64,000 nt of DNA from Octopus vulgaris (taxonomy: Eukaryota). The translations under genes and the position numbers were made by a program. Below are positions 2,872 to 3,491 of the stretch, piece after piece; position 1 is the stretch's first letter; every line of letters starts with the position of its first letter. The notes below the pieces were generated by a model. That model did not search any database. It had not been told where the DNA came from and saw nothing but the letters and a program-made list of their open reading frames with translations. The stretch covers positions 8,866,001 through 8,930,000 of the forward strand of contig OX597837.1 of NCBI GenBank assembly GCA_951406725.2, given 5' to 3'.

Positions 2872-2901
2872 GCGAGAAAGAAGCAACAAGAATGGATAAG
2901 T

Positions 2902-2992
2902 TTTTAGTACAATCGTTTCATACAAAGACAGGCTTTATTAAAAGTTGCAAAAATTGCAGCATATAAACGTGTCCCGTACTCATCAGCTAAAA
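2902..2992 (-). ncRNA. Type I hammerhead ribozyme with canonical core and long stem II
   Basis: Reverse complement of 3260-3350. Confidence 0.75.
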
Positions 2993-3259
2993 TACATGTG
3001 AGTTCTCTAGACATCTTAGTGGTTGAGGCTATACTCATGAAGTAATGTAGATAATTAAGTAACATAAACAGATTTCCAAAGTTCATTAAATTCATAGTTC
3101 ATGATGCTATTAAAACTTTTTTAAAAATCTGTGATAAGACTGTACATCATCTTTAAAGAACTTTAATGAACTTTGGAAATCTGTTTATGTTACTTAATTA
3201 TCTACATTACTTCATGAGTATAGCCTCAACCACTAAGATGTCTAGAGAACTCACATGTA

Positions 3260-3350
3260 TTTTAGCTGATGAGTACGGGACACGTTTATATGCTGCAATT
3301 TTTGCAACTTTTAATAAAGCCTGTCTTTGTATGAAACGATTGTACTAAAA
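3260..3350 (+). ncRNA. Type I hammerhead ribozyme with canonical core and long stem II
   Basis: TTTTAG(3260-65)-CTGATGA(3266-72)-GTACGGGACA...TGTCTTTGTAT-GAAA(3333-36)-CGATT-GTA(3342-44)-CTAAAA(3345-50); 6-bp stem I, GUA cleavage triplet. Confidence 0.78.
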
Positions 3351-3491
3351 ACTTATCCATTCTTGTTGCTTCTTTCTCGCTTATAATCACCCCACATTAC
3401 TGTATTGTTAAAACCGTATAGTTTTTTGGTGCATCTAAGTTAGGTACCATATTCAAGTAAATTCATTAAAATTGACTTGAATCTTTATTGC

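What the first reader, a model, noticed from the sequence alone, without database searches (positions are those of the whole stretch)
2872..3380. 219-bp inverted repeat placing two intact hammerheads on opposite strands
Seen: arms 2872-3090 and 3162-3380 appear identical, suggesting a very recent event. Each holds a canonical HHR with 6-bp stem I, CUGAUGA, an unusually long ~60-nt stem II (GUACGGGACA/UGUCUUUGUAU, UUUAU/AUAAA, UGCAA/UUGCA), GAAA and GUA, with predicted cleavage after 3344(+) and 2908(-). A transcript in either direction reads the antisense arm first and then the ribozyme, so a long dsRNA hairpin competes with ribozyme folding. Known: inverted pseudo-LTR arrangements are typical of Penelope insertions. 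Inference: a young element that could act as a self-silencing switch, an siRNA source or an ADAR substrate.
Basis: partly seen in the sequence, partly recalled or inferred. Interest (0 to 1): 0.8.

Follow-up and report, generated by a model that had tools for sequence, protein, structure and literature searches.

The report
Head-to-head Penelope retroelement ends with hammerheads
This perfect 219-base inverted repeat is two truncated copies of one abundant genomic repeat joined back to back between two TA microsatellites, likely the ordinary footprint of a Penelope-like jumping gene, and its predicted hammerhead ribozyme is unusual only for a long inserted arm.

Summary
Arms 2872-3090 and 3162-3380 are complementary at 219 of 219 bases, and each carries an intact type I hammerhead core. 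The unit is larger than reported: 2872-3495, between two (TA)n runs. Public contigs show a high-copy repeat family. Bases 3381-3494 belong to it, other copies end at 3379-3385 next to (TA)n, and it continues upstream of 3102. So the locus is a 394-nt and a 219-nt 5'-truncated copy joined head to head through an 11-nt filler, with a one-sided 3' tail. That layout, hammerheads on opposite strands and a (TA)n target are all published for Penelope-like elements (PLEs). The parent ORF was not found, so membership and clade are unproven. Stem III is a self-complementary 8-mer, so cleavage probably needs a dimer. Read-through RNA would form a hairpin that abolishes the ribozyme fold, most likely a by-product rather than a switch. 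Two features differ from what I read: a 60-nt helix II region and a ~115-nt tail (published: 30-40). Two 14-nt blocks are identical in a 72%-identical relative at 61091; they could be a poly(A) signal or a pseudoknot. The junction itself was not confirmed by reads.

The parts
2829..2870 (.). (TA)n run, left side of the inferred target site
   Evidence: sequence
2872..3090 (-). short (219 nt) 5'-truncated copy; its outer end equals position 3380 of the long copy, a preferred family 3' end
   Evidence: table 7 (ends at 3379 and 3385 followed by (TA)n in 6 and 18 contigs of run X1)
2902..2992 (-). type I hammerhead motif, core at 2986, predicted cleavage after 2908
3091..3101 (.). 11-nt junction filler; read on the minus strand it repeats the ATGAACT/ATGAA word found at 3166-3172 (inferred template slippage)
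   Evidence: one search shows other family copies carry different sequence before 3102
3102..3161 (+). family sequence present only in the long copy; 3102 is its 5' truncation point
   Evidence: table 7: matching upstream loose ends at 3102 in all 4 runs (7, 6, 6 and 3 contigs)
3162..3380 (+). right arm (pLTR-like part of the long copy)
3260..3350 (+). type I hammerhead motif: stem I 6 bp, core 3266-3272 and 3333-3336, 60-nt stem II region closed by G.U, self-complementary stem III 3336-3343, predicted cleavage after 3344
3305..3318 (+). 14-nt block inside stem II, identical in the 72% relative; ends in AATAAA (3313-3318), 26 nt before the cleavage site
3358..3371 (+). second 14-nt identical block, U/GU-rich, starting 14 nt after the cleavage site; 3365-3369 can pair with 3304-3308
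3381..3495 (+). one-sided 3' extension ('tail', about 115 nt) belonging to the repeat family
   Evidence: tables 2 and 8 (records 21 and 30 bridge 3380 with 31 or more letters each side; records 8, 16, 24 and 32 cover the rest to 3492-3494)
3496..3539 (.). (TA)n run, right side of the inferred target site
61091..61209 (+). diverged single copy of a related family (72% identical) with the same hammerhead type, ending at the equivalent 3' position before (TA)n; no inverted partner found

Best explanation
The locus is two 5'-truncated copies of one high-copy repeat joined head to head between two (TA)n runs, likely a single Penelope-like retroelement insertion whose two ends each carry the element's predicted hammerhead. 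SHOWN: the geometry, family membership of 3102-3494, other copies ending at 3379-3385 next to (TA)n, and the 11-nt filler. INFERRED mechanism: a parent element's GIY-YIG endonuclease cut a (TA)n run on both strands. Each free end primed reverse transcription at one of two internal start sites on the RNA (about 3380 and about 3495). Both cDNAs stopped early (219 and 394 nt) and were joined at their growing ends with slippage, which left the filler. I put this two-ended priming at about 60% of the PLE case, and snap-back of one cDNA followed by endonuclease trimming at about 30%; the filler fits both. INFERRED ribozyme behaviour: weak or inactive as a monomer, cleaving as a dimer through the palindromic stem III, perhaps with protein help. 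It serves the parent's RNA, not this locus. If a neighbouring promoter reads through the locus, the RNA would form a 219-bp hairpin that blocks both ribozymes and could feed small-RNA or editing pathways as a by-product.
For:: 3042, 808, 746 and 64 contigs laid in 4 runs; the family runs on upstream of 3102 and past 3380; other copies end at 3379/3385 next to (TA)n; 20 of 24 listed runs, from 13 studies and 8 organism labels, hold the stretch or part of it; the relative ends 37 nt after its cleavage site before (TA)n, against 36 nt here. Craig 2021 (PMC8557442): an inverted 5'-truncated copy at the 5' end plus a one-sided tail is typical. Arkhipova 2013 (PMC3846280): head-to-head is the most frequent arrangement, with pLTRs of 193-218 bp. 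Cervera 2014 (PMC4209133): dual hammerheads 100-700 bp apart on opposite strands, and palindromic helix III. Frangieh 2024 (PMC11167929): a PLE protein cuts and extends both strands at AT-rich DNA and starts at two internal sites whose spacing is the tail. Hydra-clade elements target (TA)n; Penelope-13_HM lists the same hammerhead on both strands with a G.U-closed stem II; the stem III self-duplex is -5.8 kcal/mol against +2.4 as a hairpin; the relative keeps the core with two compensatory pair changes; none of the 6 variant rows inside 3260-3350 touches the core or stem I.
Against: No RT or GIY-YIG ORF was linked to the family. No strand-switch joint was listed, so the central junction is unconfirmed. 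The tail is about 115 nt against a published 30-40. Where the family ends beyond 3494 was not tested, so 3495 as a second start site is inferred. (TA)n ends were displayed for only 1 of 4 runs (24 loose ends shown, 102 not shown). The covariation is not significant (63 of 500 shuffles reach it; only two independent sequences). No target-site duplication can be read in (TA)n. The hammerhead was not assayed.
Confidence: 0.8

Rival explanations
1. Assembly or library artefact: a fold-back read, or a misjoin between two copies of a high-copy repeat, created the inversion, or polishing made the arms identical.
For: The arms are 100% identical. The family is very abundant. No contig joint confirms the junction (table 5). 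Craig 2021 notes that such structures trouble assemblies.
Against: The left arm ends exactly at a natural family 3' end next to (TA)n, and the flanks are not mirrored. The asymmetry matches the published PLE layout. Both arms keep alleles that are minor in run X1 (3236, where 811k of 860k summed depth reads the other base; 3296, 817k of 1023k), which majority polishing would tend to erase.
Confidence: 0.07
2. The family is a non-autonomous hammerhead element (non-LTR retrozyme or SINE-like) that borrows PLE enzymes, not the end of a coding PLE.
For: No ORF was found. Stem I is the canonical 6 bp. Retrozymes carry type I hammerheads and are proposed to derive from pLTRs (abstract and introduction; passages).
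Against: Retrozymes are defined as head-to-tail tandems of 150-450 bp. Here the copies are dispersed and inverted. The 30 upstream bases shown do not, by eye, repeat within 3102-3494, which argues against a short period. The mechanism of insertion would be the same.
Confidence: 0.07
3. The repeat is kept by selection as a regulatory hairpin or ribozyme switch (siRNA source, ADAR substrate, self-silencer).
For: The whole-repeat fold is -388 kcal/mol and costs the ribozyme fold about 130 kcal/mol. Inverted Penelope copies yield siRNA in Drosophila. One A>G change (3275) appears in 8 contigs of the run guessed to be RNA and in 0 contigs of the other three runs.
Against: No sign of a host gene was seen (Pfam on 150 of 308 ORF pieces gave only mariner HTH domains above cut-off). 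The guessed-RNA run has no excess of A>G sites (3, against 1, 1 and 3). The 3275 change concerns the family, not this locus, and no matched DNA exists. Transcription from internal pLTR promoters would run outward and make no hairpin.
Confidence: 0.04
4. A MITE or fold-back DNA transposon with 219-bp terminal inverted repeats.
For: Long perfect inverted arms, a short spacer and a TA-rich site.
Against: The arms are not the termini (115 nt more on one side). The spacer is the family's own upstream sequence plus filler. A relative occurs as a single uninverted copy.
Confidence: 0.02

Closest known systems
Endonuclease-bearing Penelope-like elements with inverted pLTRs (Adineta Pen2/Pen2a, Drosophila virilis Penelope; PMC3846280, PMC8557442)
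   Same: Head-to-head inverted copies of about 200 bp, 5' truncation, a one-sided 3' tail, and a hammerhead in the repeat.
   Different: Only the ends are present, with no ORF. The tail is about 115 nt against 30-40. The junction has an 11-nt filler rather than a palindrome or overlap.
Hydra clade PLEs (Craig 2021, Files S1 and S2; e.g. Penelope-13_HM, Penelope-1A_NV, Penelope-2_NV)
   Same: (TA)n target, type I hammerhead near the 3' end, 7-8 nt near-palindromic stem III, G.U closing stem II in some members, AATAAA/ATTAAA close to the ribozyme in several, and one consensus with the hammerhead on both strands.
   Different: Their loops II are 3-10 nt, against a 50-nt insert here. The hammerhead of Hydra-1_Obim is a different sequence. 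Five motifs of this family gave 0 hits in the supplement (line breaks and cut cells could hide a hit).
Minimal PLE hammerheads of metazoans (Cervera and de la Pena 2014, PMC4209133)
   Same: Type I, palindromic helix III, predicted dimer action, pairs on opposite strands 100-700 bp apart.
   Different: 6-bp helix I, a much longer helix II region, and G.U in place of the conserved G10.1-C11.1 pair.
Non-LTR retrozymes (PMC7229834; bioRxiv 10.64898/2026.07.22.740005)
   Same: Type I hammerhead in a short, AT-rich, high-copy, non-coding repeat.
   Different: Not in head-to-tail tandem; circular RNA not tested.

Membership tests
Penelope-like elements (EN+) | ORF with telomerase-like RT and GIY-YIG endonuclease | tested here: inconclusive
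   None in the insertion or among the 150 of 308 ORF pieces scanned. The 63-aa frame across the ribozyme has no credible homologue. The copies are truncated, the genome is not held, and only 30 upstream bases were seen.
Penelope-like elements (EN+) | Direct or inverted pLTRs with 5' truncation, head to head | tested here: met
Penelope-like elements (EN+) | Optional one-sided 3' tail of 30-40 bp | tested here: inconclusive
   A one-sided extension exists and is family sequence, but it is about 115 nt.
Penelope-like elements (EN+) | Type I hammerhead with palindromic helix III in the pLTR | tested here: met
   (sequence and structure only)
Hydra/Neptune/Naiad clades | Insertion into (TA)n | tested here: met
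   Both ends of this unit, the 61 kb relative and 24 contigs in run X1.
Hydra/Neptune/Naiad clades | Clade-diagnostic protein motifs (e.g. DKT, CxCX5C linker, domain order) | not testable with these tools
   no parent ORF available
Hammerhead ribozyme, type I | Conserved core CUGANGA / GAAA / UH with three helices | tested here: met
   no Rfam hit
Hammerhead ribozyme, type I | Self-cleavage | not testable with these tools
   Folding only: the active monomer fold has probability about 0.003 in a 101-nt piece.
Non-LTR retrozyme | Head-to-tail tandem units each with a hammerhead | tested here: not met
   Copies are inverted or single in the window; other loci could not be seen.
MITE | Inverted repeats form the termini | tested here: not met
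   the element extends 115 nt beyond the right arm

The most novel reading that the evidence does not exclude
The 60-nt helix II is a functional module. Its invariant block ending in AAUAAA and the invariant GU-rich block past the cut site form a poly(A) signal threaded through the hammerhead, so host 3'-end processing and dimeric self-cleavage compete for the same ~25 nt and sort element RNA into mRNA or template. Alternatively the two blocks form a helix II-tail pseudoknot that activates the ribozyme. Either way this would be an abundant hammerhead class that Rfam models and short-spacer descriptors miss.
Probability: 0.15. Interest if true: 0.6.

Novelty: new member of a known kind. Interest (0 to 1): 0.27.

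Why it matters
The inverted layout itself is routine for Penelope-like elements. The value lies elsewhere. First, the family is abundant and apparently young, and its hammerhead escapes Rfam and a published 7-17 nt spacer descriptor, so ribozyme counts in such genomes may be too low. Second, this small insertion records two probable reverse-transcription start sites and a slippage filler, which makes the unresolved question of how PLE inverted structures form testable across many copies. Third, the function of PLE hammerheads is still open, and the two conserved blocks give a specific mutational test.

Tried and rejected
Whole-genome search: no genome is held, so no copy number, parent or empty site could be obtained. 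Rfam: 0 hits at gathering score; at E up to 10 over 1-8000 there were 124 matches, almost all microsatellite mimics of miRNA models, and no hammerhead. Parent protein: Pfam on 150 of 308 complexity-filtered ORF pieces gave only two mariner HTH hits above cut-off. For the 63-aa frame at 3157-3345, the Atlas best score was 0.81, none of 13 candidates among longer proteins scored, and phmmer gave 6 weak hits; the two I read look like unrelated repeat proteins. I reject it as a gene. Host identification through a repeat-derived ORF found nothing. Motif scans of metagenome contigs and viral contigs gave 0 hits. Sequencing runs: no RNA holder listed. Contigs cannot show RNA ends, so cleavage at 3344 was not testable, and no strand-switch joint was listed. 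Upstream similarity between the locus and the 61 kb relative is not significant (28 of 300 shuffles reach it). The bacterial promoter scan is irrelevant to this host and below chance. Earlier-findings look-ups returned nothing. Lunse 2017 is not held; I saw it only as cited in a review. Naiad_Ovul 'HHR_half_core' was considered as a parent; the published end I saw is a different sequence, and cephalopod Naiads are described as old remnants.

Full report
Observation. The two arms are exact reverse complements over 219 bases with a 71-nt spacer. A relaxed scan found 5 hammerhead-like sites in the window against a mean of 0.1 in 30 shuffled windows. Rfam does not recognise the motif. The window is AT-rich, dense in microsatellites and repeats. 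Its SINE-like repeats look to me like those of Octopus; that label is recalled and was not confirmed by any search (one search found nothing).

True extent. The nearest (TA)n runs are 2829-2870 and 3496-3539. I laid public contigs of 4 runs on 3091-3494; 3042, 808, 746 and 64 contigs were laid, of which 730, 210, 209 and 5 are at least 99% alike. Summed depth is not a copy number, but this many overlapping variant contigs means a high-copy family with near-identical members. Two of the 32 listed pieces bridge 3380 with 31 or more letters on each side, and others cover on to 3492-3494, so the 115 nt right of the arm are family sequence. In run X1, 6 and 18 contigs stop at 3379 and 3385 and continue as (TA)n. 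In all four runs, contigs continue upstream of 3102 with matching sequence that differs from 3091-3101. Only 24 of 126 loose ends were shown. The unit is therefore a long copy (3102-3495, +) and a short copy (3090-2872, -), joined at their 5' ends by an 11-nt filler. Read on the minus strand, the filler repeats a word from 3166-3172, as slippage during joining would leave. Twenty of 24 listed runs, from 13 studies and 8 coded organism labels, hold the stretch or part of it. No strand-switch joint was listed, so the junction itself remains unconfirmed.

A relative. A single copy at 61091-61209 is 72% identical (E 2e-9; alignment). A model built from the three copies finds no others in the window. 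The relative keeps 7 of 7 and 11 of 12 bases in the two core segments and shows two compensatory pair changes, which is not significant with two independent sequences (63 of 500 shuffles). It ends 37 nt after its cleavage site before (TA)n, against 36 nt for the short copy here.

The ribozyme. Stem III costs +2.4 kcal/mol as a hairpin but pairs with a second molecule over all 8 nt (-5.8; -6.4 in the relative). The common family variant at 3338 makes it a perfect palindrome. Of 18 variant rows, 6 fall within 3260-3350. None touches the core or stem I; three keep pairing through G.U or A-U changes and three lie in unpaired positions of the predicted fold. The active monomer fold has probability about 0.003 in a 101-nt piece because another hairpin sequesters CUGAUGA, and it is effectively zero in a transcript of the whole repeat. 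This fits reports that PLE hammerheads are weak, dimeric or protein-assisted (PMC4209133, parts 1-2 of 4 read; PMC11167929, parts 1-2 of 4 read). Outside the core, two runs of 14 identical bases (3305-3318 and 3358-3371) are shared with the relative; column shuffles give two such runs in 4 of 100,000 trials, a post hoc test on an optimised two-sequence alignment. The first ends in AATAAA, 26 nt (24 in the relative) before the cut, and a divergent subfamily seen as loose ends at 3306 in three runs also keeps AATAAA. The second is U/GU-rich. That spacing matches a poly(A) signal with a downstream element (general knowledge), but AATAAA occurs in 45 of 664 complex 60-mers of the window. The blocks can also pair over 5 bp (-6.9 kcal/mol; 4 bp and -2.8 in the relative), like the pseudoknots described for many hammerheads (PMC3088659, passages). 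Neither reading is tested.

Mechanism. Frangieh 2024 showed that a PLE protein cuts AT-rich DNA on both strands, extends both, and starts reverse transcription at two internal sites whose spacing equals the genomic tail. Applied here by inference: both ends of a cut (TA)n run primed cDNA, at about 3380 and about 3495; both stopped early and were joined. The alternative is self-priming of one strand, proposed by Arkhipova 2013 (PMC3846280, passages), followed by trimming. It needs the snap-back strand to end at a site where single copies also end, so I favour it less. Identical arms are expected at birth under either model. They bound the age only to under 0.7-7 Myr for assumed rates.

What is known. 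Craig 2021 (PMC8557442; passages, section 11 and supplement parts 2 and 52 read, plus supplement searches) describes inverted 5'-truncated copies, one-sided 30-40 bp tails and (TA)n targeting, and lists Penelope-13_HM with one hammerhead on each strand. Cervera 2014 reports opposite-strand hammerhead pairs 100-700 bp apart. siRNA from inverted Penelope copies is reviewed in PMC3681739 (passages). I found no paper on this family in searches for octopus + Penelope + hammerhead, hammerhead ribozyme + octopus or Penelope + hammerhead + polyadenylation signal. The library lacks most subscription papers, long supplement cells were cut, bioRxiv supplements are closed, and Repbase/Dfam could not be searched, so the family may already be catalogued.

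Function of the hairpin. Read-through would give a -388 kcal/mol duplex, but nothing shows that this locus is transcribed. One A>G change at 3275 is seen in 8 contigs of the run guessed to be RNA and in none of the other three. That run shows no overall excess of A>G, and there is no matched DNA. This is a hint about the family only.

Verdict. Real in the sequence, likely a real PLE-type insertion (0.8), and of a well-described kind. It works like a PLE end; membership is not proven without the parent ORF. The long helix II with two conserved blocks and the long tail are the only features worth follow-up. Interest 0.27.

Noticed in passing
window 2590-2800 (-), core at 2726; 43600-43818 (-), core at 43741; weaker copies 10663-10771, 398-517, 16325-16436, 59066-59173: A second repeat family with a minimal hammerhead (12-nt stem II region, ACGU stem III). 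The two best copies are 88% identical, start and end at the same places, and have TA-rich flanks. The 2.7 kb copy lies just left of the target (TA)n, so a minus-strand RNA would meet two hammerheads about 208 nt apart.
   Followed up: partly
window 61091-61209 (+): Diverged relative with the same long-stem-II hammerhead and a perfectly palindromic stem III.
   Followed up: yes
window 4094-4232 and 4336-4473: Two SINE-like copies in inverted orientation, 75% alike, 104 nt apart: another possible dsRNA former near the locus.
   Followed up: no
window 13720-13783/15339-15402, 15492-15598/16155-16260, 46806-46893/47406-47493: Inverted pairs that look like DNA-transposon or MITE termini (95%, 83%, 77%). 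The last encloses a mariner HTH remnant (PF17906 at 46923-47111); another lies at 19864-20193.
   Followed up: no
window about 2085-2120 (-): Degenerate hammerhead-like motif (CUGAUGA, short stem, UAAA in place of GAAA), seen by eye.
   Followed up: no
window 3451-3482: A small hairpin inside the tail, just before the inferred distal start site; possibly a recognition element.
   Followed up: no
window 3275 (family level): A>G seen only in the run guessed to be RNA (8 contigs) and in none of the other three runs; possible editing in stem II, or a subfamily allele.
   Followed up: partly
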